A program made the position numbers and the translations under genes. Of a DNA stretch of 64,000 nucleotides, positions 5,709-63,900 are shown in pieces (the first letter of the stretch is position 1; every line of letters begins with the position of its first letter). Under the pieces are notes generated by a model that saw nothing but the letters and a program-made list of their open reading frames with translations, was not told the DNA's origin and did not search any database. Origin of the DNA: Eledone cirrhosa (lineage: Eukaryota). Where the stretch lies: the NCBI GenBank assembly GCA_964016885.1, contig OZ024741.1:383222001-383286000 (forward strand), in the 5' to 3' direction.

Positions 5709-5729
5709 TATATATATATATATATATAT

Positions 5730-6460
5730 AATTGCAAGTTTGAAGAATTATTAGATAAAATATATCCAGTCTTACCTCACCCTAGTCCGCAGAAATTAAC
5801 TAGATAAATAATCATTTAAACGGAGCTATAAAATGTATCTGACTGCTCTTTCTAGCAGCCAGCCTACTTGCTACCTGGCCACCATTCACAACATTCTACT
5901 TTGACCACTAGCCACGTGATGATTCTTAGCAATTTTTGAATTCATTTCTGGCGGAATCATTATAGACATTTTAATCCAAACCTGATGGGGGTCTCTTGAT
6001 AAGCTCTAAGCCTCATGGATAATACCAAGATCGCACATATCCATAAAGTACGAGCGAAACTATCGATAGTCGAGACTAGAGGAATTTTGGTAAAGTTTAT
6101 ATGCTTTTTTTCTTCTAACTTATATTTTAGACTTAGCTCCGTTTAATTGATTATTTGTCTAGTTAATTTCTACGGGCTAAGAGAAAGGACTGGATAGATT
6201 TTATCTGACTGTTCCTCGCGGAAAATAGTCTGTATCATTTACCTACTATTTCTCCAAAGTTACGTTTTATACTTATAGCTGCGTTTAAATAATTATTTAT
6301 CTAGTTGCTTCTACGGACTAGGGTGAAGAAAGACTGAATATATTATATCTAATAATTCTTCAAACTTGCAATTTTATATATAGCTCTGATTAATAATTAT
6401 TTGCTTGATTAAATTTTTCATTTAGCCACACCGTGAAAGGTAGCCACAATCATATATGTA
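5730..6460. mobile_element. PLE pLTR fold-back remnant
   Basis: Inverted repeat 5730-5833/6273-6373, internal duplicate at 6133-6210, HHR in the spacer, (TA)n on both sides. Confidence 0.7.
5991..6076 (+). ncRNA. Type I hammerhead ribozyme, U3-A8 core variant
   Basis: gtctc-TTGATAA-gctc...gagc-GAAA-ctatcgatag-TC-gagac: stems I and II, palindromic stem III and a GUC site. Confidence 0.8.
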
Positions 6461-6508
6461 TCTGTGACTAAGTCTAAATATATGTCTATATATATACATA
6501 TATCCCTA

Positions 6509-6586
<78 letters not shown>

Positions 6587-14064: not shown

Positions 14065-14254
14065 GTGTATATGTATGTATATGTGTATATATGTATATGT
14101 GTGTGTATGTGAGTATATATATGTATGTATATGTGTATGTATGTGTATGTGTATATGTATATATATATATATATATATTATATTATGAAATACTGTTGGC
14201 TTCTTGCTCACATTAATTTCTCTATTTTCATTTATATACATATATATTTATAAA

Positions 14255-16105
14255 ACACAAAATCACTGGCTCTACTGTTGGCCCTCTAATTGATGAAAAT
14301 GGCACTCTTCAAGACAATGCTAAAGCCATAGGTGAGATACTGCAGAAACAATACTGCTCTGTTTTCAGCAATCCTTATATGGCTGATCTGGGCTGTATCG
14401 GCGATGTTACTCCCCATTACACCTTATCGGACATAACGTTTGGCGCCCCTGATGTCTTAGCGGCAATAAAGGAAATCAAGCATAATTCAGCAGTAGGTCC
14501 CGATATGTTCCCTGCTTGTGTCTTGAAGGGGTGTCAACACCAACTTGCATCTCCTCTTGCCAATCTGTGGCGGAACTCACTGGATGCTGGATATGTGCCA
14601 GAAAACCTTCTATCCCAGTCTGTTGTCCCAGTTTTCAAAAAAGCAAACGAATCCCTTGCTGTAAATTACCGTCCAATCTCACTCACCTCTCATATCATTA
14701 ATGTATTTGAGAGAGTGGTGAGATCGCGAATGACTCACTTCCTTGAGAGTAACAATATGCTGAACTCCAACCAACATGGATTCCGTAATGGAAGGGATTT
14801 CCTGACGCAGCTACTGCATCACTTTGATGACATTTTGAGAGCCTTGGGAGAGGGTTCCAACACTGATGTTATCTACCTTGATTTCAGCAAGGCCTTTGAC
14901 AGGGTTGATCACAACATTCTACTGAGAAAGCTGTCCAATATTGGTGTCACTGGAAAGCTGCTGCAGTGGATCAAGAGCTTCCTGTCAAACAGAACCCAAC
15001 TTGTTGTAGTCGAAGGAGTCAAATCCAGCCCAGCCAAAGTCAGTAGTGGGGTCCCACAAGGCACTGTGTTGGGCCCACTTCTCTTCATCATCTATATTAA
15101 TGACATCACTGACATCATCAAACACAGCAACATTAGAATTTTCGCTGATGATTCCAAGCTCCAAAAGGTCATCAATGGCGTGGATGACCGGATAAGCCTT
15201 CAGTCAGACCTACTGGCTGTTACCTAATGGGCGGAAAAGAACAACATGTTACTGAACGAAGACAAATTCGAACTGATCCACTTTGGAAAAGGGGATGCTC
15301 TGAAACACCCGTACTCCCTTCCCTCCGGTGAAACTCTCGTGGCATCTAACAACATCAGAGACTTGGGAGTAACCGTGGACAGCAACATAAGCTGGGCCAC
15401 GCATATAAGCAGCAAAGTTGACATGGCCCGCAGAATGTGTTCCTGATCCTCAGAACCTTCCAGTCGAGAGATTCCCACACCATTATCCTTCTCTTCTCCA
15501 CTTTTGCCCGACCACACATTGAATACTGTTGTCCACTGTGGTCTCCCCACACGAAACAAAGTATCATGAAACTTGAAGCTCCTCTAAGAGCAATCACAAA
15601 AAAGATAGATGGCATGTCAGATCTTGACTACTGGGGTCGACTAGAAAAGCTGAAACTTTACTCACTCCAACGTCGCCGTGAGCGTTATATTATCTGCATG
15701 ATGTGGAAAATGTTTCATCAGCACTGCCCAAATGATGTTGGCATCACCTTCAAAATACACCCAAGGCTTGGGCCCCGTGCTATCTGTCCCAGACAAAAAT
15801 CTAAATCGCAACACATAACAACAATACGGCACAATTATTTCACCTCAATCGGCCCTGCTCTCTTCAACATCACACCAGGACACGTCAAACGAGAAACTGA
15901 CCACACAAAATTCAAGAAGTCTTTGTACAAATTCCTCCAAGTAATCCCGGATAAACCACCCACACCCGGATATGTCTCCGCAAACAGTAATTCTCTTTTC
16001 GAATGGGCCATGGTGCCCAAATCCTGAGTTGAAAGACTTCACCAGGTGGTACTATTAAGTTAGACATGGCCTGGGCCAATACTTGCCAAAACATTTCAAA
16101 GTTAT
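14255..16105 (+). mobile_element. 5'-truncated CR1/L2-group LINE, RT pseudogene
   Basis: NYRPISLTS, QHGFR, YLDFSKAFDRVDH, GVPQGTVLGPLLF, FADD, LYSLQRRRER. Stop at 15225 and frameshift near 15440. Short ttcaaagtta tandem tail. Confidence 0.92.
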
Positions 16106-16807: not shown

Positions 16808-17953
16808 CGAAAGAAATGTGGTAAGGAACCAGGTGGACCATAACGCACCAAAGTACTCAATACTTAGGGTAGTAGAGTGGGTAATAGGAACGGCTAATTC
16901 TGGACTAAACTTAGTCCAGAATGAGCCGTCGAAACGGCTTGAGCTCAGCCGTCGGGGTCCTACTGGTTCCTCGATTTAGGTAGACTTAGTAAGACGATTC
17001 TTGATAGAATTATACCTGAAATTAGAAGTTTGGCCCCGGCTTGCAGTGTGGAACAATACCTTCGCGGTGATTGATTGGTTCAACGGCATATGTAACAAGG
17101 AACATTGCCGTTTTATTCAATTCGACATCAACAATTACTACTCCTCCATCACCTTACCACTTCTCCTTAGGGCTATCAATTTCGCTAAAACACTCACAGT
17201 GGTTAAGGATTTCGAAGTTGATTTCATCCTCAATGCCCGAAAGTCGGTGATTAATTTCGACGACTCTATTTGGATTTAAAAATCCAATAGTACACCATTC
17301 GAAGTGAGTATGGGCGCCAGTGATTCTGCAGAGGTTACTGATCTTATCGGCCTTTTCCTTCTTTTCTCTATCAAGGACGAATTCCCCAACGCGGGCGATG
17401 GTTTGTACCGTGACGATGGTCTTTTGACCATGACTAAGTGCGGACCTCGTGCTTGCGACAGGTTCAGAAAAGAACTCACAGCCTTCTTTAAAGGCTTCAA
17501 CCTCTCTATATAGGTTTTTGGCCAATCTCTCGGTCGTTAATTACCTCGACGTTACCCTCAACTTATTGAATGAGTTGTATTACGCGTATAGAAAGCCGAA
17601 TGATACGCTTAATTACATAAGTAAGCATTCCAACCATCCTGCCAGCATAACCAAGAACCTGGTAAGAAACGTTTTGTTGAGGCTTTCCCGTATTTCCACC
17701 AACGAGCGTATTTTCAACGACCATTCCACTTATTACAATGAAGTCTTGCTCGAAGTGGATTTGTCGATAAGGTAGCATATACAGAGCACGAAAATAGACC
17801 TAGAAGAAATAGATCCCGTCGCATTTGTTGGTATAACCCACCATATAATATGGAGGTGGCCACACCATTAGCTAAGATCTTTCTTTCCCTTATTACGAAG
17901 CATTTTCCCCTACACATAAATATAGTAACATTTTTAATAGAAATACTATTAAA

Positions 17954-18499
17954 ATGTCTTACTCTACGACTCCTAACCTTGCACATAACATCACAGCTTC
18001 AAATTTAGCTAAACTACCTAGCCGTATGAACACGTGCAACCCTGTAGTTAGTACTAACTGTAATTGTAGGAATCGGGTTGATTGCCCCCTATCCGGGAAA
18101 TGCCTCTCTAGTAACATTGTCTACAAATGTAAGGTTGTAACACCCACGTCCCGTAGGGCCTACATAGGGTTAACTGCCAATAGATTCAAGCAGCGTCTTT
18201 ACATGCATACCCATTCTTTTCGTTACCCTCTAAGAAGGAATATGACGTCACTTTCAGCTTATATCTGGAGTCTAAAAGACAACCACACCACATATAAGTT
18301 ACACTGGGAGATCCTAGCTAGGGCTAGATCGTATAACGGAAATAAAAGACCATGTGACCTCTGCGCCGCTGAGGCCCTGGAAATACTCTACGCCACAGAC
18401 ATAATCTTAAACAAAAAATCTGAGGCAATTTCGGCTTGTAAACATAAATTGCACAAAACCTTCCTTTATTACAGCCCCACGTTATACCCTAACGGATAG
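17954..18499 (+). pseudogene. PLE linker + GIY-YIG endonuclease (open segment)
   Basis: CNCRNRVDCPLSGKC, IVYKC, YIGLTANRFKQR, CDLCAAE, LNKKSE. Confidence 0.85.
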
Positions 18500-19499: not shown

Positions 19500-21235
<1,736 letters not shown>

Positions 21236-22013: not shown

Positions 22014-25000
22014 TGCATAGTGTGGAATACATGCGACAGATAATACAAGAGAATAGTCTAATAATTAAACTAAAGAGATAGTACATGCGTTAGTCATATA
22101 TAACGGAATGGAATAAGCAAATGTATCATGCATATATGAGTACTGTATGGAAAGCTATTACATAAAATACAAGCACTTTAAGCGAATATGTTAGTGTATT
22201 ATGGTGGAGCCAATGCGATGATATTTTCTGTATAGTTCAAATTTGTATGTGTGTAGAATATGAAAGTTACAGATTTCACATACATTACATATGTTAAGTT
22301 ATATTTGTATTGAATGTTTGTTATAGTAATGGATTGTAACTTGGTGTTATTGTATTCATATTTATGGATTAGAGTTGTTCTACTGCGAGAATTTTCAAAT
22401 GTTTAATATCCGGAAGTGGATATGGAATTAAGGGGAGCTAATGCGTAAGGGGAGGTAACTAACTCATTATAATAATTAAATTCCTTGCTCTAATATACAT
22501 AATATAGTGCCTCAATTGAATCCCTTATATAAAATTATATATTTATATCTAATTTAATTTCAAATACAGTCTATTCTCTCATAATATATTAAAGGTTTCA
22601 TTAGATTGTTGTATACCCAATATTATATAGTGTCATAATTGAATCCCTTATACAAAATGTTATATATTTATATTTAATTTTAAATACAGTCTACTCTCTC
22701 ATAATATATTAAAGGTTTCATTAGATTGTTAGCTACCCAATATTTGGCAAGATATGGAATAACGTATAGCTGTTTGCATGATAAATTAGATACATCCCTT
22801 GAGTAAATAAATTAATCTTTTATATACAATGTTATTAATTCATACATTTAATTATATGTGTATATATAATTCATTGTTCCATATTACATTTAAGTTAGAT
22901 AAATCCCTTATGTTAATAAATTAATCCTTTATATACAATGTTATTAATTTATATATTTAATTATAAATGTATATATATAATCCAGTGTTACATTTAATAT
23001 TTAAAGTTTATATATATTATATTATATTTCAATCACTATATAATTATAAGTAATCTAAAGAAATTATGTTAACATGTGGTGACTATAAGAATATTTCTAG
23101 AGTATAATGTTAGAGATAAGAATGATTTGTGTAGAGGAAAGGGTGGATCAAAGAGTGTGATGCAGGGGTGGAAGGCAAGTCTTAGAGGTGAAGTGCTAAT
23201 GGTGGTGATGAGTTCAAATCTGACATTGTTATATACTAGGTTTAAAGCTATGGAATGAGAGTAGGAAGCGGTGCTGACACGATGCAAAACACTTCCGAGT
23301 TTTTATTTAGGAGGTTAAGATTCGAAAAGATTATAGTCTGGGTCTCTAGGAGACAGAGGTTACAAAATGTATTAGGTTGTTTATACGATGCATCCCTACC
23401 TACTACTTCCCATTGAAGTGTATATGTTCTATTCATAGTTTTCAGATAGTGTATGTAGATAGTGAAATGGAGTTGGCTAGATTGGGTTTTTTGAAAGAGT
23501 GTAGGTGCGAGTTGTATCTCGTCTTGAAGCAGTTCGAAGTAGAGCCTATATGCGTTTTAGAAGATTTGTTAGTGTTGACCGTGCAGGAGTAAATGATGTC
23601 TTTGATTAAGCAGTTATTACCTAAAGGGCAAGTTCCATTTGATCTACAGTTACATTTATTTTGGCTGTTATCTTGTCGGTTATTATGTTGCTAGGGTTAG
23701 TATTAGGGCTATGATGGTTGTCGTTCCTAATGTTATTGATTTCATTAGTGTTATTACTATTATTACTATTGCTATTAGGGTTTGTAGTTATTAGGTTGTT
23801 CTGAAAGTTAACCTCCTGCTGTGTTTTAATTTGTTGAAAATAAGTATTAATCTTTCTTTTATTACTACTAGCTATATGGTATGCTATATTAGGTGTGTTA
23901 GGATAAGAGATTTTAATGGTGTTTTTATTTATAAAATTATGGTTTTTGTGGCCAGATGGAAAGTTTTTTTCTAGGATTGAGAAGAAAGCCTTAGGTAAGT
24001 TGGTAGAGACGTTTAGATTGAAAGCGGGATTGAAAAATGTATTAGTTCTTCTATTTTTGTTTTTTATAATATCTATTCAGGTATTTCTGTTTATAATATT
24101 CTTTTGGTGTCTACTTTGGTGCAAGTTAAGTTTGATACTACCCTTCGTATTAGAGTAAGGGTGGCTATTATTCTTATTATTATTTTTCCTCATGGCCATA
24201 TTTTGAGAAATAATGCTGTAACTATGTGATTTTATAGGTAGGAATTCAATCCCATTATTATGGCCTGATTTAACTAATGCCTGATTATAGTATTGTGAAT
24301 TATTGTTAAATATGGTTTCGTTATAAGATAGATTAGAGATTCTATTAGATATTCCTTTAGTGATTGAGTTTAATATGGATTTAGTGTGGTTAGACTTGGT
24401 ATCTACATAAATTAATTTTTCGTTAGGTTTATGAAAGGGTGTATATATTTTAGAGTCTAGGTAAAGGTAGCATCAAGGAAGTTAACATTTTTAGTGTTTT
24501 TGTCTATGGTGATACATAAGTTGAAGTTTTGGAAAATTTTATGTAATAGTTTGCTAGTTCTTTCTATATTAAATTGTTTATAGTCTATAAGGAGTAGTGC
24601 ATCATCGCGGTATAAGCCACCGTTGAGGTATGATAGGTCTTTATGGATTTCATTTTGTAGATATAGGCCCACCAAATCAGTGACCTGCGCCGAGTCAGTA
24701 GATCCCATAATTATATCAAAGTTGTTATGCGTGTCCTTGTGGGTCCATAATTGATCTTCAAATGTAATTATGGTTTTTCGGGCCGCAAGTATGACATCAA
24801 TCTGGGATCTAGTCAGGTCACTATTGTTCATGGCCATAATAAGTGCCTTATTTAATAGGATAGGGGAAATAGAGGTGTAGTATGAATTGATATCAAACTG
24901 TATACATTTTTTATTTTTGTTCTCTTTAATATCCTTAAACCATTCAATAACTTCACCTGTATTTCCCCACTGGTTAAGATATATTTTGCGCTTAATCTGT

Positions 25001-25883
25001 GGGATGATTTTATTTAAGATTTTCTTACTGATAATACCAATGTCAGATTTGGAAGGGCAGATTTGTCTTATCGAAGGGTTATTAATGAAATCTTCCTTAT
25101 GGTCCTTCAAAAAGAATGTTGGGGGGTTAGGGGTGTATGGCTGTTTATGTCTCTTATGTCCCAATTTACACACTATACGACGGCCTTCCAAATTAATGTC
25201 TTCTAGGTTTCTAATAGTAGTTTTCCTATAGCTCCTATGTAGTTTTTTATATATACATTTTCTATATGTATCATAATCTAGGCTATATATATTATTAGTT
25301 TTATCTGCATGTACTATAATTTTATTATTTGTATTGAATCCTTTAATAGTGGAGTTAAGTTTGTTTAAGAAGATGTTGTTTCTATTACGATGATTTTTGT
25401 ATTTAATGTTCTTAACTAGTTTTATTAGGTCATTTTCAAAAGAGTTTAATAATGTGTTGTGGGGAGGGCTTTTAAAGCTTTTAAAGCCGAAATAGTCAAA
25501 TTTGTTAGTATCATCAGTTTTGTTATCATAATGGAATGTCAGCTCACTCTATTGATAAAGGAGTTGACACTATTGATCAATAATTTTGCATATGTATATT
25601 TAGATGGTATTGGTATGTTCTTAGTAGACATAGGAAGGTAGTCTTTGATCAGCATACTGGTAATTTTAATGTATGTTAGCGCAACAGTATGGAGCAGTTA
25701 ATATTAAAGATACTATTTATAGTTATGTATATACTATACTGTAAACAACTATAAACAGGGAAGGTCAGTAATTTATTACTACCTTATTACCAATAAGAGA
25801 AATAGCTCAATGTAAGAACATCAGTTGTTTTACAGAGCAGTAATATAGATTACACAAGTATCAAAGTTATGTTTAAAACATTT

Positions 25884-25935
25884 AATCGCTGACAATTGTT
25901 TCTTCCAAACTTAAGCTTGGGGTCCTCGGAGCATT
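25884..25935 (-). ncRNA. Hammerhead motif in the upstream pLTR (CCGAGGA)
   Basis: aatgct-CCGAGGA-cc-ccaagc-ttaa-gtttgg-aa-GAAA-caattg-TC-agcgatt. Confidence 0.7.
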
Positions 25936-25959
25936 ATCAATATTTGTATATATATATAG

Positions 25960-25990
<31 letters not shown>

Positions 25991-26004
25991 TATATGTATT
26001 TATA

Positions 26005-26101
<97 letters not shown>

Positions 26102-26188
26102 ATATATATATGTGTATGTATATGTGTATATATATATATACATGTGTGTGTATATATATATATATATAAATAAATAAATGTGTATATA

Positions 26189-26229
<41 letters not shown>

Positions 26230-26268
26230 ATATATGTATATATATATATATATAAATAAATAAATGTG

Positions 26269-26319
<51 letters not shown>

Positions 26320-26347
26320 ATATATATATATGTATATATATATATCT

Positions 26348-27496
26348 CGATAATATTCCAAAGTAAAGAATAGTTAATGCTCTTTGATTTTAGGTCCCAT
26401 AGTAAGCTAGATAAAAAAGTTGAAGATTGTTTATTTATATTCGTAAATGAGCATTTATGGTTATTAAAACGAGATTTAAAGTCTCTGGAAGTAGAACCTA
26501 CATCATTAAATGAATTTAAATTAGTTTTTACATTACAATTATATACTATATATTTAGCTAAACAATTGCTATTTAACGGACAGTTAGATTTATTTCAACA
26601 GTTACATTTATCAAAATTCAAGTTACTAGGAGCCGTATTATTAAATTGGATATTGCTGGGGTTGTTAATGGTATTCTGGTTAGGTTTTAAGTTTCTATTA
26701 TTAATTCTATTAATATTCTGCGCTAAATTAATGGTGGTTGAATAAGTTAATTTTAAATTATGTCTATTAAATATTGAGTAATACCTATGTGTTCTAGGGA
26801 AGCATTTGTCAAGAGCTTTAAAGAATAGTTTAGCAATAGGAGTTTTAATATTTAATGAGAAAGGAGGAGCGAACCATAATATATTCCTAGTTCTATTTCT
26901 TTTTTTGTTTTTCGAATTATTGTAAGGTTTTCTATTACAGTTGTTAAAATTATGGTTAGTTGTTATATTATTATTATCAATGTATTTAATTGTATTACTA
27001 TATCCAGCTCTACCTAAAGCTTCCTTGTAATACTGTGCTTTATCATCAAAAATATTATTATTAGCTGAAATTCTAGAAATGCTTGGCTGTACAGAATTTA
27101 CTATAGTATTTTTAACGGATCTGGGGTGATTGGAGTTAAAATTAAGTAGTTTAAGTTCTCGTTTAATTTGTGAAATGGATAATGAAGACATGTGTTAAGG
27201 TTTAAGGTTACATCTAGAAAGTTAACTATTTTATAATTATTCTCTATTTCTACTTTAAGATTAAGGTAATTAAAAATTGTATAATTTCTATTCTTTTCCT
27301 ATTTAATTCACAGTTATTATTTTCGATAGATAATAGCATATCGTCGCAATATAAACCTCCGGTCATCTCCGGTATTTTTCTATGTAGACTATTATTTATA
27401 AAAAGTCCCACAAGATCCGTTATTTGGGCGGAATCAGATGACCCCATAGTGATATCGAAATTGTTATCTCTATCTGCTCTAGTCCAGAGGTCCATA
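26348..27496 (-). mobile_element. Internal fragment of a third Naiad-type PLE
   Basis: [59 protein letters not shown]. Confidence 0.85.
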
Positions 27497-28912: not shown

Positions 28913-28948
<36 letters not shown>

Positions 28949-29033
28949 AAAAATTGAACAGGGACAGAACAGAGAGGCAGTACGACAAATGTTTATTAGA
29001 TTCACGCTCAGGAGAGTGGGGGGTAGGTTGAGG

Positions 29034-29065
29034 AAGACGTTTCGGTCATAAGCCCTTCTTCAGGT
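29034..29065 (-). ncRNA. Minimal hammerhead, 3' pLTR copy (stem mismatches)
   Basis: CTGAAGA-a-gggc-ttat-gacc-GAAA-cg-TC. Confidence 0.7.
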
Positions 29066-29897
29066 AAGAGTTCAAAAGGTGTGTAGGGGAGTGGTGGAGA
29101 GACATATAGCGAAAGGAAACGGTGCGAATGAAAAATTAACAAATAAAGACAAAAATATAATAAATAATAAATAAAAATAAAGCATGATCAAAATACAAGG
29201 AATGAGAACATTTAAAAATAAAGGCATGATCAAAATAAACTGAAATTAAAAGGGGGGTAAACAGGTGGTGGAAGGGTGTGGGGTGAGTAGAGGTGGAGGC
29301 GGGTGGAGTGGGGAGAGGGAGACGGGGTGTCCGAGCGGGGAGGGCTGAAGGTGGTGTGTGTGGTTAGGTGTGCGTGTGTGTGTGTGTGTGTGTATGTGAA
29401 AGTGAGGGTTGGGGGAAGAACGGGGTTGCATGTTCAGGAAGGTGTGTGTGGGGGGTGTTTTTGTGTGTCGGAGGGTCTGTGCGTGTGTGGATAGGGGGTG
29501 GGGAGAGAGGAATCAGGGGGCTGAGGGTGTAAATATGTGGTGGGAAGCACGTGTGTGTGGTTTAAGCGTGTTGTGGGTGTGGGTGGCGTGTGGATAAAAA
29601 AAATTGTTTTGGGATGTGTGTGTGGGTGAGTTATATAGGTGATGGTGTTAGAGGATGGTTGAAAGTGGTAAGTTACACGGATGTATGGAGATTTTGGTTG
29701 GAAGTCAAAACGCGTGTGGGTAATCCAAGAAGCGGTGGTCGGAAGAGGAGAGATGTGGGGTGCGCGCGCAACAGGAAGTGGTCAGCAGTGGAAGTGCTGT
29801 GGTCAGTTGGTGCTGAGACAGTGGTCGGAAGGGCATAGCAGCAGTCAGCGGAATGGTAGGGAGGCGAGGATGGGTAGGTGTGAGAGTTGGAGTGAGG

Positions 29898-29958
<61 letters not shown>

Positions 29959-30435
29959 TAGTAGGGATGTGGGTGGGATGAGTGAGTGTGGAGTGGGGAG
30001 AGAAGGGTGTGTGTGGTTCTATGGAGGGAGTGTGGTGTACTGGTGTGTGTGTAGTTTGGTGAGGAGGTGTTAGTGGGTGTTAGTAGACGGGAGGTGGGGA
30101 GGGGTGGAATGCAGGTATGAGTGGGGGTTGGTGGGGGTAGGGTGTGTAGAGTTGGTGGTGTACGAGGGTGTGTGGGTACGTGTGCGTGGGGATGGAGGGT
30201 GTTAGTGATGTTAGTTGCGTGTGGGGTGGGTGGTGTAAGTGTGTGCGTGTGATAAGGAGGGGGGAGGAGGAGAAGAGGGGAGGGAAGGGATGTTAGTATG
30301 TTAGTTGGGGAAGGGTGGTTAGATGAGGGGTGGAGTGGAGGTGTTAGTATTGTTAGTGTGGGGTGGGCGGTGAAAAGGAGGGGTGTGTTAGTGGTGTTAG
30401 TGGGGGATAAGTGGGGGAGGGGGGGCGGTCGAACG

Positions 30436-33228
30436 CTAAAGGAATAAGGGTGGGGAGTTCAGGCCGGGGGGGAGTGTGGGTCTGTAAGAGGAAGATAGTA
30501 CGTTGTTCGACCGTGAGGCGATGGGCGGGTGTTCCGTGGCACTGGAGTAGGCCACAGACTGTGAGATGGTGTGCGGAGTGTCCAGGGCCACCAAAGCGGC
30601 GGGCGATGGGGGAACTGCCCCCGAGACGAATGTCCCGGAGGTGCTCCGTGACTCGGTCCGCCAGGCGGCGTCCCGTCTGTCCGACATAAGTCGCGCTGCA
30701 CCTCGTGCAACGAAGTCCGTAGACTAGGTTGGAGGAGGTGCAGCGGAAGGCATGCCGGACCGAGAGAGAGTGGCCGTTGGGACCCTGGAAGGTGGTGGTG
30801 TTGGTGATGTGGGGACAGGTGTTGCAGCGGGGCCTAGAACAGGGGAAGGAACCGGGGGGGGGGGAAACGGAGCGTGGGTTGGGGGGTAGGGAGCTGTGGA
30901 CGAGGAGGGTGCGGAGATTGCGTGCGCGTTTGAAGGAGGGGAGTGGTGGGGTTGGGAAGATGTGGGAGGTGGAGGGGTCGGACTGGAGGTGTCGGAAGAG
31001 GCGGCGGATGGTGCGGTGGAGGGGTAAGGTGGAGGGGTGGTAGGTGATGGGGAAGGGGAGACGGTGGGTGGGTGTGCGGTGGCGTGGGGTGAGGGTGGTA
31101 GAGCGGGGGATAGCAGAGCGGTGTGGACGAGAGAGGGGGGGTAACCTCTGCGGATGAAATGGCTGACTAGGGAAAGGGCTTGGGACTCGAAGTCAGCATC
31201 TCGGCTACAGAGGCGGCGGATCCTGAGAAGTTGGGAGTAGGGAATGGAGAGTTTAGTGTGGGTGGGGTGGGAAGAGGTGAAGTCGAGGTAAGAGTGGGAG
31301 TCGGTGGGTTTGAAGAAGGCGGAGGTGACGAGGGAGTGGTGGGAGGGGTCGAAGGCGACGGAGATGTCCAAGAAGTGGACGTGGGTGGTGGAGATGGAGG
31401 TGGTGAAGTGGAGGGAGGGGTGGAAGGAGCAGAAGAAGGAGAGAAAGGAGTCGAGCTGTACTCGGTGAGGGTCGTGGCTCCGATACAGTCGTCAATGTAA
31501 CGACCGTACAGTTCGGGCGTGGGGCCGGTGTACTGGGCAAAGATTTGGGCCTCAACATGGCCAACAAAAAGGTTGGCATAGTTCGGGCCCATTCTTGTGC
31601 CCATGGCTACCCCCGTGACCTGTTGGTAAAACTCACCCGAGAAGGAGAAACAATTTAGGGTGAGGACCAGCTCGGCGAGGCGAAGGAGGGTGGGGGTGGA
31701 GGGAATGGGGGAGGGGCGAAGGTCGAGGTAGTGTTTGAGGGCGCGAAGGCCGTCGGCGTGGGGGATGACGGTATAGAGGGACTTGATGTCTAGGGTGAAG
31801 AGGAATGGCTGAGGGCCGGGTAGGTAGGTGAAGGAGTCGAAAAGGCGCAGGGCGTGGTTGGTGTCAGAGATGTGGGAGGGGAGGGTGGTGACAAGGGGGG
31901 CGAGGAGGGAGTCGAGAAAGGCGGAGATGAGTTCGGTGGGACAGTTGCAAGCGGAGACGATGGGACGGTCGGGGTTGTCGGGTTTGTGGAGTTTGGGGAG
32001 GAAGTAGATGGTGGGGGTGCGGGGTGTGCGGACGATGAGGTGGGAAGCGGTGGGGGGAGGAGGGAGGAGGCGATAAGGTCTTTGATGGTGGAGGAGACTT
32101 GTTGTTGGTAGAGGGGGGTGGGATCGGAGGGTAGAGGGCGGTAAAAGAGGGGGTTACAGAGCTGCCTGAGGGCTTCGGCCTTGTAGAGGTCCGCGCGCCA
32201 TACCACCACGGCGCCTCCCTTGTCCGCCGGTTTGATGACGATGTCATCTCGGCTACGGAGGGAGCGGAGAGCGAGGAGTTCGCCCCGTGAGATGTTGTGC
32301 CGTTTGGAACGGTGGCGGAAGTCGAAACGATTTACTGCGCTACGGCTGGCATCGACGAAGGCGTCCAGGGTGCTAAATTGCCCTGGGGCCGGCGTCCAAG
32401 AAGATGGTCGTCGGCCCAGGGCGAGAAATGGGTCTGGGGCGTCCGGAGCCGGTGGCGTTTGACCGAAATGTGCCTGTAGCTTAGTGCGTCGCACGAATCG
32501 CTCGACTTCCGTTCGGGTGCGGAACTCGTCGCTGAGCGGAGTGTGGGGTATGAAGCGAAGGCCTCTACTAAGGAGTGAGCGCTCAGGTGCGGAGAGGGGG
32601 AGGTCAGGGGGTATGGTGACAACAAGGGGTGGGGTTTGGGTGTTAGGGGAGGGAAGGGAGGGTGTGGTGAGGGGTGGAGGTTGGGTGGGGGTGGCGGTCG
32701 GGGGAGAGGTGGGGAGTGGTGGGCGTATGGGGATGGGCGGATGGTGGTGGATGGGAGGGGGGAGGGGAGGAGTGAGTGTAGCTTGCGGCCTTTGGTGGAG
32801 CTGAGGAACGAGAAGAGGTTGTGGTTGAGGTTGTGGATGAAGGAGAGGATGGCTTGGGCGAGGAGGGGGTGGCAGGTGGAGTAAAGGCGGAGGAGGGTGG
32901 GGGTCAGTTGGTGGTCAAGTAGGCGGAGGGTGGAACGGGAGGCGCGGATGGAGTTGCGCATCAGAAGGCGGGAGGATCGGGTGAGGATACGTTGCGAGGA
33001 GGGGGAGGCAGCGGGGGAGGGGTGGAAGTGTAGACGGAAGCCAAGGGGGATAAGGTGGAGGCGGAGGCAGTGGCTGAGGAAATGGATGTGGCTGGAGTGC
33101 CGGGTTTTGGCGAAGAGAAGGTAGGAGAGTTGAAGGGCGGATGGGAGATAGCAGGGTGGAAGGAGGGGGGTGAGGAAAAGTTTGAGGCGATTGTGGAGTT
33201 GGTGGAGAAAGGATCTCAGGTTGGCCAT
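30436..33228 (-). pseudogene. PLE polyprotein (RT + Zn knuckle + GIY-YIG), frameshifted
   Basis: IKPADKGGAVVVW, LPKLHKP..RPIVS, DIKSLYT, GVAMGTRMGPNYANLF, RYIDD, FKPTDSHSYL, CSRPRCNTC, RCTRC..YVGQTGRRLADR, GLN. Confidence 0.9.
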
Positions 33229-33776
33229 GATGGGCGTTGGGTGAAAGCAGGGGGGGGGGGGGAAGAGGGCGGGGTGGAGTGAACGAAGGGGTGAGTGCGA
33301 AGGATAGGCAGAGACGGGGATGGGAAAAGGAACCAGAAAAACGTGGGGAGGGGGGGAGTAAACACCGGAAAATTAAAGACAAAAAATCATAAAGGTAATA
33401 ACACAGGCGATCGTGAACAAAAATTCATAGAAATATCATAAAGGTAATGACACAGGCGATCGTGAACAAAAAATCATGGAATACAATTGTAGGAACACAG
33501 GCAAAGAATCATATACGGAAAAAAAGGGGTACGGTAACAAAATCAAACAGAGGTAATGCGTGGAAGGAAAGACAAAGTGTGGGAAGGTGTGTAAAGTTCG
33601 GAGAAAGGTCACGGCGGATTAGATCGGGGTTGAGCCGGTTGTTAAGTTGTTCCAAGGATGGAGGCCGTGTGAGCGTGTGTTTTGTATAATAAAAAATTGA
33701 ACAGGGACAGAACAGAGAGGCAGTACGACAAATGTTTATTAGATTCACGCTCAGGAGAGTGGGGGGTAGGTGGAGG

Positions 33777-33808
33777 ACGACGTTTCGGGCATAAGCCCTT
33801 CTTCAGGT
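33777..33808 (-). ncRNA. Minimal hammerhead, 5' pLTR copy (intact core)
   Basis: ac-CTGAAGA-a-gggc-ttat-gccc-GAAA-cg-TC-gt. Confidence 0.85.
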
Positions 33809-34668
33809 AAGAGTTCAAAAGGTGTGTAGGGGAGTGGTGGAGAGACATATAGCGAAAGGAAACGGTGCGAATGAAAAATTAACAAATAAAGACAAAAATA
33901 TAATAAATAATAAATAAAAATAAAGCATGATCAAAATACAAGGAATGAGAACATTTAAAAATAAAGGCATGATCAAAATAAACTGAAATTAAAAGGGGGG
34001 TAAACAGGTGGTGGAAGGGTGTGGGGTGAGTAGAGGTGGAGGCGGGTGGAGAGGGGAGAGGGAGACGGGGTGTCCGAGCGGGGAGGGCTGAAGGTGGTGT
34101 GTGTGGTTAGGTGTGCGTGTGTGTGTGTGTGTGTGTATGTGAAAGTGAGGGTTGGGGGAAGAACGGGGTTGCATGTTCAGGAAGGTGTGTGTGGGGGGTG
34201 TTTTTGTGTGTCGGAGGGTCTGTGCGTGTGTGGATAGGGGGTGGGGGGAGAGGAATCAGGGGGCTGAGGATGTAAATATGTGGTGGGAAGCACGTGTGTG
34301 TGGTTTAAGCGTGTTGTGGGTGTGGGTGGCGTGTGGATAAAAAAATTTGTTTTGGGATGTGTGTGTGGGTGAGTTATATAGGTGATGGTGTTAGAGGATG
34401 GTTGAAAGTGGTAAGTTACACGGATGTATGGAGATTTTGGTTGGAAGTCAAAACGCGTGTGGGTAATCCAAGAAGCGGTGGTCGGAAGAGGAGAGATGTG
34501 GGGTGCGCGCGCAACAGGAAGTGGTCAGCAGTGGAAGTGCTGTGGTCAGTTGGTGCTGAGACAGTGGTCGGAAGGGCATAGCAGCAGTCAGCGGAATGGT
34601 AGGGAGGCGAGGATGGGTAGGTGTGAGAGTTGGAGTGAGGAGGGTGTGTGTGTGTGTGTGTGTGTGTA

Positions 34669-34708
<40 letters not shown>

Positions 34709-34777: not shown

Positions 34778-34842
<65 letters not shown>

Positions 34843-34846
<4 letters not shown>

Positions 34847-35450
34847 TATGAAGAGAGAAGAAACATTTAGATATAATTAGTAATAAAATGTATCATACCT
34901 AAACTGTTCCTAAATTCCTCGACTACGTAGTTTCGTGGCATAAACAAAAACAATATATCAAAGATATAGAGTCCTTGCGAGGTCTGCCGACTTATCAAGA
35001 GGATACCTCATTTTACTAGTCTCAAGAACGCGTCTACACGACGTGAGAAAGAATCCCAAAAGGCGGAGGGGGAGATAGTCACGCGATATAACGGTCGAGA
35101 AACCGAGCTAAGCCTCTTATAACCACGAAGAAAATACCACGGAGGCGGAGGGGGTATTCATATCGAGGCCGTAGAAGAGGTAGTGAAGAAGGCGAGAAGT
35201 ATGAGTAATGGAAGCTTTCCAGGTGTCCCCACACTTGTTTTTGTTTATGCCACGAAACTACGTAGTCGAGGAATTTAGGAACAGTTTAGGTATGATACAT
35301 TTTATTACTAATTATATCTAAATGTTTCTTCTCTCTTCATAATGTATTTTTAACTCTGATACTGGTTCAGTCTGGTTCAAACTGAATTGGTCTGTCCCAG
35401 TCATTCATTGAGCAACATCGGTGAAGTTGGCACCCTTAACTCACAGTTGG
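34843..35450. mobile_element. PLE pLTR fold-back
   Basis: Apparently perfect ~110-bp inverted repeat 34843-34953/35235-35345, flanked by (TA)n. Confidence 0.8.
34916..35003 (-). ncRNA. Type I hammerhead ribozyme, U3-A8 core variant
   Basis: tcctc-TTGATAA-gt(c)ggca...tgccac-GAAA-ctacgtag-TC-gagga. Confidence 0.8.
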
Positions 35451-35500
35451 GTGCGGATGCATTCATGTATATATGTGTGTGTCCGCATGTATCTGTGTGT

Positions 35501-35587
<87 letters not shown>

Positions 35588-60999: not shown

Positions 61000-63900
61000 A
61001 ACTAACAGCGCTGCGATGGAATGTGGCTTTTTAGCCCAGCCAATGATCTAAAATGTCTTGCACAGAGTCGGCGACCAAAACATTCACTGGGAATAGTCGG
61101 CTCTGGTTGGAGTTCATGTACTTTTGCATGTCGCTTGAGCCCTCCCGCTGATTTACATTCTCTACCACATGTTTGGCAAGCATGATGAGTAGCATCTCCA
61201 ACAGCAGCCTGGTAGTCAACCACTGGTCTTACTTTATGACTGCGACGATGACTTTCGAGTCCAGCTTTGCTTAGGCAGAGTCTCGCACAGACGCTGCATG
61301 TCAGCACTATAGGAGGACCCTCGCCGTCTTGAAGTGCAACAGCAATGCCCTTCCTCACATCTCGCTTTACTTTCTCGTATGCGATTCGAGATGCCTCAAA
61401 GGCAACTTTTCCCTCATATACAGTCTTTCTCCATTTATTACGATCAGCAGCAATATTTTCCCATGTATCAGCAGAGATGTTAGCGTCTTTCAAAGAGGCT
61501 TTCAAGAAATCCTTATACCTCTTTTTTGGTTTATGTGGCGGTCGTTTTCCTTTAACCAACTCTCCATAAAAGAGTTGTTTTGGTATTCTATAATCTTTCA
61601 TCCTGGCAAGGTGACCACTCCAACGGAGTCGTTGCTTAAGCACAAGAGCTTCTATACTGTCACACATAGAGCTTTCCAAAATCTCGACATCACTGATGTG
61701 GTCTCTCCATTGAACGCCATGGATCCGTCTGAGACACATCTGATGGAAACGCTCCAATTGCTTAATGTGGTGTCGATATGTGACCCAGGTCTCGCAAGCA
61801 TAAAGAAGACAAGAGAGCACACATGCCTTGTACACCTTTACCTTTGTCCTCCTGCATATGTCTCGCCGACCCCAGAGTCGCCTTTCTAGCTTTCCGAAAG
61901 CATCACTTGCTTTCCTAATCCTAAGTGAGATTTCTGTATCGTTTGACAGTGCTTCCCAGGTAGACAAACTGATCAACCACTCCAAGTCGTTTGCCATATA
62001 CATAGATGTTTGGTTCAGTGTACTGCTTACCAGGGGCAGGTTGGTACATGACGACGGTTTTCTTGAGACTGACAGTCAATCCTAGGGCAGTGAAAGCGTC
62101 AGAAAATGCATTCAAAATGTGCTGCATATCACTCTCTGTGTGCGCTACAAGATCGCAATCATCTGCATACAAGAGGTCTCTTATGATTGATGTAAATACT
62201 TTTGTCTTTGCAGCAAAGCGCCTGATGTTAAATATGCTGCCTGAGGCTCGATATCGGATGTAAACACCATGCTCGCAATTCCTGAATGCAATACAGAAAA
62301 CCATTGCAAAGTATATGGCAAACGGGGTCGGTGCTGGAATATCCCCCTGTTTCACTCCATTTTTTACTGAGATAGGCTCCGACATGTTACCTCCGACATT
62401 AACCCAAGCCTTCATGTCGTCATGGAAAGACCTAACTAAAGCAAGGAACTTATCAGGTCAACCAAGTTTCTAGAGAACCTTCCATAATGCATCTCTGTTA
62501 ACAGTATCGAAAGCTTTTGTCAGATTGACAAAATCCTGATACAGATCCAAGTCTTGTTCCATGCACTTCTGCTGGAGCTGTCTAGCTGAGAAGATCATAT
62601 CAGTAGTGCCGCGTCCAGCACGAAAACCAGATTGACTTTCAGGAAGAACACAATCTGCAAGGTGTGTCAGCAGACGGTCCAGAGGCACCCCACATAAAAC
62701 TTTCCCTACGACGGAAAGCAATGATATACCTCTGTAGTTCCCACAATCATTCCTGTTACCCTTTCCATTGTACAAGACCACCATTATTGCATCTCTCCAG
62801 TCCTCAGGTACGGATTCATTAGCCCATATCATGCCAAACAAAGAGTGAAGATGTTGCAGGAGTCTCTCATCACCATATTGTAGGAGCTCAGCATGTATGC
62901 CATCCATACCTGGAGATATTCCACTGTTCAGCTTCGAAATAGCCACTGCAACCTCCACAAGCGTCGGAGGTTCTGCGAGAGCTACTTTCACAGGACTTTC
63001 TGGAATGAGATTGACGAAATCTTCACTGACGACAGACGGCTGATTCAAAAGATCATCAAAGTGCTCTCGCCACCTTCGTAGAATTCCTTGTGAGTCACGA
63101 AGAAGTTCTTTGCCATCCTTGCGGCGAAGCGGTGTCACCAGAGAAGACGGTCCATAAACCTCATGCAATAGACTCTACAACAGCTTTGTGTTATTGGAAT
63201 CTGACGCAGTTTGTATCTCACCAGCCTTCTCACTCCACCACTGATCCTTCATCTGAGAAAGACTCCGCCTAACACGTGATTTTACATCCTTGAGTTCCTC
63301 ATGCAACGTATTCCTCTACTGTGGTTTTGCCGTCAAGTAGCGTGACAGAGCACGCCTCTTATCAGCCAACAAGTCTTCTATATATACATCATTCTCATTA
63401 AACCAGTCCTGATGTTTTCTCTGCACCAATCCCAGAACACGCCTGCCTACATCATAAACCGACTTTTTAAGGGTCGGCCAATCCTCACCAAGATCTGCAG
63501 CCTGCATCTCTTCTTCCAATGTCCTCTTCACATTTTTATCCTTAAGACGAACAGCATTCAATCTTTTGGGCAGGGCAACACCAGGAGCCCCTAATTTACG
63601 TTTAGTGATTAGTTTCACTTTTGCGCGTACCAGGCGTTGGTCCGTCCAGCACTCAGCTCCACGAAGAGCACGAACACACTGCACATCCTCTCTGTCACGC
63701 ATCCTGACTAGGACGTAGTCCAAAAGATGCCATTCCTTAGATGCAGGATGCATCCATGTGGTCTTGAATTTGGTCTTTTGTTGGAACATGGTGTTGGTAA
63801 CACACAGATCCAGCTCCTCACACATCTGCAGCAGGAGCATACCATTGTTGTTACACTTTCCCACCCCATGCCTTCCGATTACATTCCATGTGTTAAAATC

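What the first reader, a model, noticed from the sequence alone, without database searches (positions are those of the whole stretch)
34916..35003. Second U3-A8 hammerhead in a different sequence context (copy B)
Seen: minus strand tcctc-TTGATAA-gtcggca...tgccac-GAAA-ctacgtag-TC-gagga. It shares core architecture with 5991-6076 (ctc-TTGATAA-g, c-GAAA-cta..tag-TC-gag), but stem II and the flanks differ. The arms of its fold-back look identical, so it is probably young. Inference: two diverged families keeping U3-A8 argues for selection and may mark a PLE lineage.
Basis: partly seen in the sequence, partly recalled or inferred. Interest (0 to 1): 0.75.

Follow-up and report, generated by a model that had tools for sequence, protein, structure and literature searches.

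The report
Hammerhead retrozyme with swapped core pair
This is one copy of a 591-base non-coding repeat present thousands of times in this genome; it carries a predicted self-cutting hammerhead RNA with an already published U-A core pair and is likely copied by Penelope-type jumping-gene enzymes, and its relatives carry U-A, U·G or C-G at that pair, so U-A does not mark a lineage.

Summary
The motif is real: a type I hammerhead with a U3-A8 core at 34916-35003 (-). It is not at the end of a protein-coding Penelope element (PLE). It lies in a two-armed insertion (34841-35512) of a 591-595-nt non-coding tandem unit, a non-LTR retrozyme with about 7,200 motif matches genome-wide. In 38 of 44 two-armed insertions the arms end at two fixed sites about 165 nt apart, mostly in (TA)n. 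A helix just after the first site is shared with Hydra-clade PLEs, the likely mobilisers. Copies A and B are homologous but far apart. Their stems covary, so the fold is under selection. U3-A8 itself is published (Perreault 2011; Cervera and de la Pena 2014) and does not mark a lineage: sister families of A spread with C3-G8, a U3·G8 group lies between the two on the tree, and unrelated families also use U3-A8. Twenty-two arms start at the predicted cut site, against 9 and 2 at control positions: modest evidence of cutting. The scan had already noted this family elsewhere in this genome (e1-9595527). Cleavage, circular RNA and the partner enzyme remain untested.

The parts
34841..35234 (-). 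Long arm of the insertion: unit positions about 1-394, 3' end at fixed site 1 against (TA)n
35235..35512 (+). Short arm, head-to-head with the long arm (2-nt overlap): unit positions 282-559, 3' half of the hammerhead only, 3' end at fixed site 2 against (TA)n
34916..35003 (-). Type I hammerhead motif (family B): 5-bp stem I, U3-A8 core, 57-nt stem II rod, palindromic stem III; predicted cut between 34921 and 34920
34992..34998 (-). Core UUGAUAA: U3 at 34998, A8 at 34993
35348..35512 (+). About 165-nt 'tail' between site 1 and site 2, present on one arm only
35352..35413 (+). Helix just after site 1 (GCTCTG...CAT[A/T]GAGC in older copies, one base changed here), shared with Hydra-clade PLE ends; candidate binding or initiation signal (inferred)
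34779..34840 (.). (TA)n target, left
35513..35585 (.). (TA)n target, right
5721..6518 (+). Copy A: two-armed insertion of the older homologous family A, hammerhead at 5991-6076

Best explanation
This is a two-armed insertion of a protein-free 591-nt tandem repeat (a non-LTR retrozyme) whose RNA is predicted to cut itself with a U3-A8 hammerhead and is likely reverse-transcribed into (TA)n by a Hydra-clade Penelope enzyme. Shown: no ORF, arrays of several units, thousands of dispersed copies, head-to-head arms, two fixed 3' ends 165 nt apart, (TA)n targets, compensatory stem changes. Inferred: read-through transcripts of an array are cut once per unit, probably as dimers through the self-complementary stem III, and probably circularise. 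The enzyme cuts both strands of (TA)n, starts one cDNA at site 1 and the other at site 2 of the same or an identical RNA, copies round past the joined cut site, and the two cDNAs join by short overlaps. Selection keeps a pair at positions 3-8, not U-A in particular: U-A, U·G and C-G lineages have all spread.
For: Copy number and fixed core: (14 + 14 single-base exceptions, none C3-G8). Tandem 591-595-nt units and no ORF; no contiguous PLE ORF in 223 loci. Ends: 38 of 44 two-armed insertions have one site-1 and one site-2 end (38 of the 41 with both ends at a site, p 5e-9); 58 of 64 3' ends adjoin TA. 48 of 115 arms exceed one unit, the longest 2,907 nt. Ten locus-private variants in six loci are shared by both arms. 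15 of 23 junctions overlap by 1-8 nt. Covariation: 97.5% of 280 cells paired, 6 of 14 pairs with double changes, slid controls 26-56%. Stem III duplex -14.3 kcal/mol between molecules, no fold alone. Cut-site starts: 22 independent against 9 at +3 and 2 at -3. Hydra link: the post-site-1 helix occurs in family G, whose endonuclease has the CxCX5C linker and is contiguous with its 3' end in two loci, and at the ends of published Hydra consensus sequences.
Against: No cleavage, transcript or circle was observed. The catalytic fold lies 5.0 kcal/mol above the minimum-energy fold in a 130-nt context. The cut-site excess over the +3 control is only about 2.4-fold (p 0.015), several junctions are ambiguous by microhomology, and such arms are well under 1% of copies. 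No Hydra element with a B-like terminal repeat was found; whole-tail alignment of G to A or B is not significant, so the link rests on a motif picked after the fact. 48 of 64 private variants covered by both arms are in one arm only (expected from later mutation, but uninformative). Six of 44 two-armed insertions break the site-1/site-2 rule. Eight of nine frog retrozyme dimers did not cut in vitro (bioRxiv 10.64898/2026.07.22.740005). The covariation count mostly reflects the single A/B split.
Confidence: 0.78

Rival explanations
1. B is the truncated terminal repeat of an autonomous PLE lineage defined by U3-A8.
For: Head-to-head arms, a one-sided tail and (TA)n targets are PLE features (PMC8557442). 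Another U3-A8 family in this genome is a true PLE end. Full-length PLEs are rare among truncated copies.
Against: Upstream of the hammerhead lies only the previous unit; no contiguous ORF in 223 loci, some of them overlapping; C3-G8 sister families in the same clade; U3-A8 in unrelated families.
Confidence: 0.07
2. The hammerhead is structurally kept but barely catalytic; it serves as a protein-binding fold, and arrays come from uncut multimer transcripts rather than circles.
For: Nearly all arms read through the cut site. Two arrays carry the same broken or wobble core in both units. Ribozyme mutants did not reduce insertion by a lizard PLE in vitro (PMC11167929). The catalytic fold is not the lowest-energy fold.
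Against: All invariant catalytic positions are kept across families separated by about one substitution per site; positions 3 and 8 change together; arm starts step up at the cut site.
Confidence: 0.12
3. It is a DNA-level satellite or fold-back element spread by recombination, the hammerhead being a passenger.
For: Tandem arrays and inverted arms exist; unequal crossing-over is a proposed route for array growth.
Against: Short dispersed insertions with fixed 3' ends and random 5' ends, no terminal inverted repeats of fixed length, covariation in RNA helices, and several A-to-G variants shared by all units of an insertion.
Confidence: 0.03

Closest known systems
Metazoan non-LTR retrozymes (Cervera and de la Pena 2020, PMC7229834: passages and part 3 of 6 read; Li, Clavereau and Pollet, bioRxiv 10.64898/2026.07.22.740005: parts 1-3 of 5 read)
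   Same: Non-coding tandem units with one type I hammerhead each, GC 42%, thousands of copies, self-paired unit (z -5.1 as a circle, 30 shuffles), coexisting with PLEs.
   Different: Unit 591-595 nt (170-400 nt in the tested invertebrates; within the 51-972 range of the preprint), U3-A8 core, 57-nt stem II. Two-armed insertions with two fixed ends were not described in the parts read.
U3-A8 minimal hammerheads of Schistosoma mansoni Cercyon PLEs (PMC4209133, parts 1-2 of 4 read) and natural U3-A8 hammerheads (Perreault 2011, PMC3088659, section 8 read)
   Same: The same compensatory core pair; about 1,300 hits in S. mansoni; palindromic stem III suited to dimers; such pairs reported active in vitro.
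   Different: Here the stem II is long, stem III is an 8-10-nt palindrome, the host is a non-coding unit, and both end states plus a wobble group are present in one clade.
Hydra-clade PLEs (Craig et al. 2021, PMC8557442: passages, section 11 and supplement searches)
   Same: (TA)n targets, inverted 5'-truncated copy, tail on one end only, type I hammerhead near the 3' end, GCTCT...GAGC helix at the termini.
   Different: No RT or endonuclease; tail about 165 nt against the 30-40 bp stated for PLEs.
Poseidon PAc of the green anole (Frangieh et al. 2024, PMC11167929, parts 1-2 of 4 read)
   Same: Two internal start sites for reverse transcription, both target strands cut and extended, AT-rich targets, predicted protein dimer.
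   Different: There the two start sites are adjacent and show no strand preference in vitro; here they are 165 nt apart and nearly always one per arm.

Membership tests
Type I hammerhead ribozyme | Three helices round the conserved core, open at stem I, NUH site | tested here: met
   GUC site; C3-G8 replaced by U3-A8
Type I hammerhead ribozyme | Match to Rfam Hammerhead_1 | tested here: not met
   no hit at E<=1; the 45-position model does not fit the 57-nt stem II, while a short-stem family in the genome does score
Type I hammerhead ribozyme | Self-cleavage at N-U-H | not testable with these tools
   only an indirect footprint: 22 arm starts at the site against 9 and 2
Non-LTR retrozyme | Tandem units, each with a complete type I hammerhead | tested here: met
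   family level (this insertion is shorter than one unit per arm)
Non-LTR retrozyme | No protein-coding capacity | tested here: met
   six-frame translation of a doubled unit is broken by stops; no contiguous PLE ORF
Non-LTR retrozyme | Accumulates as circular RNA | not testable with these tools
   needs RNA from tissue; arms longer than a unit fit circles or multimers alike
Autonomous Penelope-like element | RT and GIY-YIG ORF upstream of the terminal repeat | tested here: not met
Penelope-type insertion | Inverted 5'-truncated copy, tail at one end, microsatellite target | tested here: met
Hydra-clade dependent element | 3' end shared with an autonomous Hydra family | tested here: inconclusive
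   short helix motif shared; no alignable partner found

The most novel reading that the evidence does not exclude
The genome holds a complete natural record of a ribozyme core pair changing state through a wobble: one retrozyme clade spread successively as U3-A8, U3·G8 and C3-G8. Each insertion also records a Hydra enzyme dimer priming twice, 165 nt apart, on one circular RNA. The series would give matched natural variants to measure how much cleavage a retrozyme needs, and a small template to reconstitute two-ended Penelope insertion.
Probability: 0.4. Interest if true: 0.62.

Novelty: new variant of a known kind. Interest (0 to 1): 0.4.

Why it matters
The headline feature, U3-A8, is known, so the finding as posed is ordinary. 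What remains useful: (1) the role of hammerheads in PLEs and retrozymes is open, and this clade offers U-A, U·G and C-G versions in nearly the same scaffold, each of which left genomic copies; (2) the near-strict one-site-per-arm rule with a 165-nt spacing is a sharp prediction for how a PLE enzyme makes two-ended insertions; (3) a young family of thousands of copies is a practical substrate for testing the proposed circular-RNA route.

Tried and rejected
Rfam scan of the window: only microsatellite-driven microRNA hits, all below gathering score. Repeat finder swamped by (TA)n. Pfam on 10 window ORFs: one weak RVT_1 hit and one irrelevant hit. Link to the neighbouring PLE at about 28942-34672: rejected; it faces the other way across a TA run and has its own canonical minimal hammerhead at 33806. 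A Hydra endonuclease 1 kb upstream of a B copy (L166): separated by a CA run. BLASTN of B against A found nothing outside simple repeats; homology showed only by alignment with an older B subfamily. A transcription start from arm 5' ends: no sharp peak among 116 ends. First tree (84 rows, automatic alignment, two non-homologous and five mis-parsed rows) needed two changes of the pair; cleaned trees need one. AU tests do not settle one against two origins of U3-A8 (p 0.275 and 0.034 for A-side monophyly in two row sets), so direction is left open. Sequencing runs: no RNA holder listed. Contigs of four runs were laid at low depth; one 621-nt contig equals a unit plus 30, which tandem DNA gives as well as a circle, so it is not used. 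Przybilski and Hammann 2007 (kinetics of 3-8 exchanges) is not held. Paper searches: 'hammerhead + C3U + G8A' gave 0; U3-A8 spellings gave 4; retrozyme/cephalopod and wobble searches (listings only) showed no description of this family or of a wobble series.

Full report
Observation. Copy A has the same plan. The shared 113 nt of the two arms are identical, but the right arm runs on to 35512 and holds only the 3' half of the ribozyme. Rfam does not score the motif, and alone it folds modestly (z -1.99).

What it belongs to. A DNA search of the own genome led to arrays of a 591-595-nt unit with one hammerhead per unit and no ORF. A core pattern gives 7,245 matches against 4 for the control; 99 of the first 100 are family B. 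With B flanks fixed, 14 matches differ at position 3 and 14 at position 8, none with both canonical bases. In 223 loci of the clade (some overlapping), 32 had a PLE protein hit. Every same-strand hit within 2.6 kb upstream was cut off by a TA run, or in one case a CA run. This fits the non-LTR retrozymes of PMC7229834 and of the 2026 preprint.

Insertion anatomy. I examined 71 loci. Of 44 two-armed insertions, 38 have one arm ending at unit position about 391 (site 1) and the other at about 556 (site 2); three have both ends at the same site and three end elsewhere (the first set was tallied by hand). In the 40-locus set, 58 of 64 3' ends adjoin TA and 15 of 23 junctions overlap by 1-8 nt. 48 of 115 arms are longer than a unit. 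Of 64 locus-private variants covered by both arms, 16 occur in both; six of these come from one older-subfamily locus, leaving ten in six loci. A tail on one end and an inverted truncated copy are known PLE features with a 30-40-bp tail (PMC8557442), explained by two internal start sites (PMC11167929). Here the spacing is about 165 nt. One RNA templating both arms is my inference; an array of identical units as the source fits as well.

Is the ribozyme used? Across 20 A and B sequences, 97.5% of 280 cells pair and 6 of 14 pairs show double changes; slid controls give 26-56%. Most of that is the one A/B split, but stem III also covaries within A. Stem III cannot fold alone and gives a -14.3 kcal/mol duplex between two molecules, so dimer cleavage is predicted. 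The catalytic fold is 5 kcal/mol above the minimum in context. Twenty-five copies begin at the predicted cut; all 25 are true junctions and 22 are independent. The +3 control gave 17 matches, of which 10 at 9 loci are junctions; the -3 control gave 3, of which 2 are junctions. The p values are 0.015 against +3 alone and 9e-5 against both. Microhomology blurs several junctions, so this is modest evidence. The idea for this test came from note e1-9529586.

A and B are relatives. Outside the hammerhead, A aligns to an older B subfamily with score 134.5 against 47 +/- 7 for 300 shuffles, and to young B with 78 against 38 +/- 6. Families D and E also score above all shuffles against A, more weakly. 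Further U3-A8 families with long stem II (432 matches, control 3) bridge A and B. Sister families with long stem II and C3-G8 exist too (1,189 matches, control 10). With positions 3 and 8 masked, 42-row trees split U-A from C-G by one branch at 100/100, with or without the hammerhead columns; the C-G families sit next to A. A rougher 84-row tree needed two changes, and AU tests do not exclude two origins. Among the first 100 of 263 matches at the A/K2 boundary I counted by hand 54 U-A, 37 C-G, 8 U·G and 1 C·A (8:1, p 0.02). On a 41-row tree, 7 of the 8 U·G copies lie between the U-A and C-G rows, with one U-A row among them. The switch therefore likely passed through a wobble lineage that itself spread. 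The direction U-A to C-G is favoured by the outgroup but not settled (about 60%). Note e1-8645517, from another genome, prompted this test.

U3-A8 is neither new nor a lineage mark. It was reported as natural covariation in 2011 (PMC3088659) and in about 1,300 S. mansoni PLE motifs in 2014 (PMC4209133). In this genome a short-stem pattern gives 8,144 matches (some double-counted; control 288) in at least four other families. One of these is the end of a PLE whose linker reads CX4CXXC, which resembles the linker stated for Neptune and Nematis in PMC8557442; I built no RT tree.

Likely partner. Just after site 1, A, older B and the K families carry a GCTCTG...CAT[A/T]GAGC helix. So does family G, whose endonuclease has the CxCX5C linker, CxxC and CxH motifs that define Hydra. 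In the supplement of PMC8557442, two of five hits of the two 8-mers searched are at Hydra termini behind GCTCTG and three are elsewhere. Hydra elements target (TA)n. No Hydra copy with a B-like repeat was found, so the partner is inferred.

Verdict. A real hammerhead motif in a young, abundant retrozyme of a known kind, with a known core variant. The scan had noted the same family before (e1-9595527) and similar two-armed and wobble-core families in this genome. The additions here are the A-B homology, the C-G sister families with a wobble group between, and the end statistics. Interest 0.4.

Noticed in passing
window 28942-34672 (-): Near-complete PLE with ORF pieces at 30353-33372 and a 988-nt repeat at both ends (99% identical); canonical minimal hammerhead at 33806.
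   Followed up: partly
window 17876-18499 (+), 23621-25548 (-), 25911-27194 (-): Fragments of PLEs with Hydra-like RT and linker motifs; the shared helix occurs at about 25838 (-).
   Followed up: partly
window 20081-21072 (-): GIY-YIG PLE fragment of another family; LINE-type RT fragments at 14217-16027 and 61002-63174.
   Followed up: no
L233-L241 (family G): Hydra-clade PLE with a canonical hammerhead, a 3' region of about 1.7 kb and two 3' ends about 104 nt apart.
   Followed up: partly
L242, L246 (family C): Abundant PLE with a CX4CXXC linker whose terminal hammerhead has U3-A8 with A7; near-intact ORF pieces.
   Followed up: partly
L121-L132 and L133-L148: Tandem repeats of about 316-320 nt with a short-stem U3-A8 hammerhead (family D), with covarying stem III palindromes.
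   Followed up: no
L200, L202, L182, L190: Several A-to-G variants shared by all units of one insertion; could be editing of the template RNA.
   Followed up: no
L210, L211: Arrays in which both units carry a U3-U8 or U3·G8 core, so such templates were still copied.
   Followed up: partly
unit positions about 557-580 (L063, L076, L255): A roughly 20-nt motif just after site 2 is the best-kept stretch between A, old B and family H; possibly a promoter or second binding site.
   Followed up: no
L266: A separate U3-A8 long-stem hammerhead family, not alignable to the clade.
   Followed up: no
runs X1-X20: The B unit is held, at 20-76% of sampled words, in runs of 17 coded organism labels; four were laid and show low-depth pieces over 95% alike.
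   Followed up: partly
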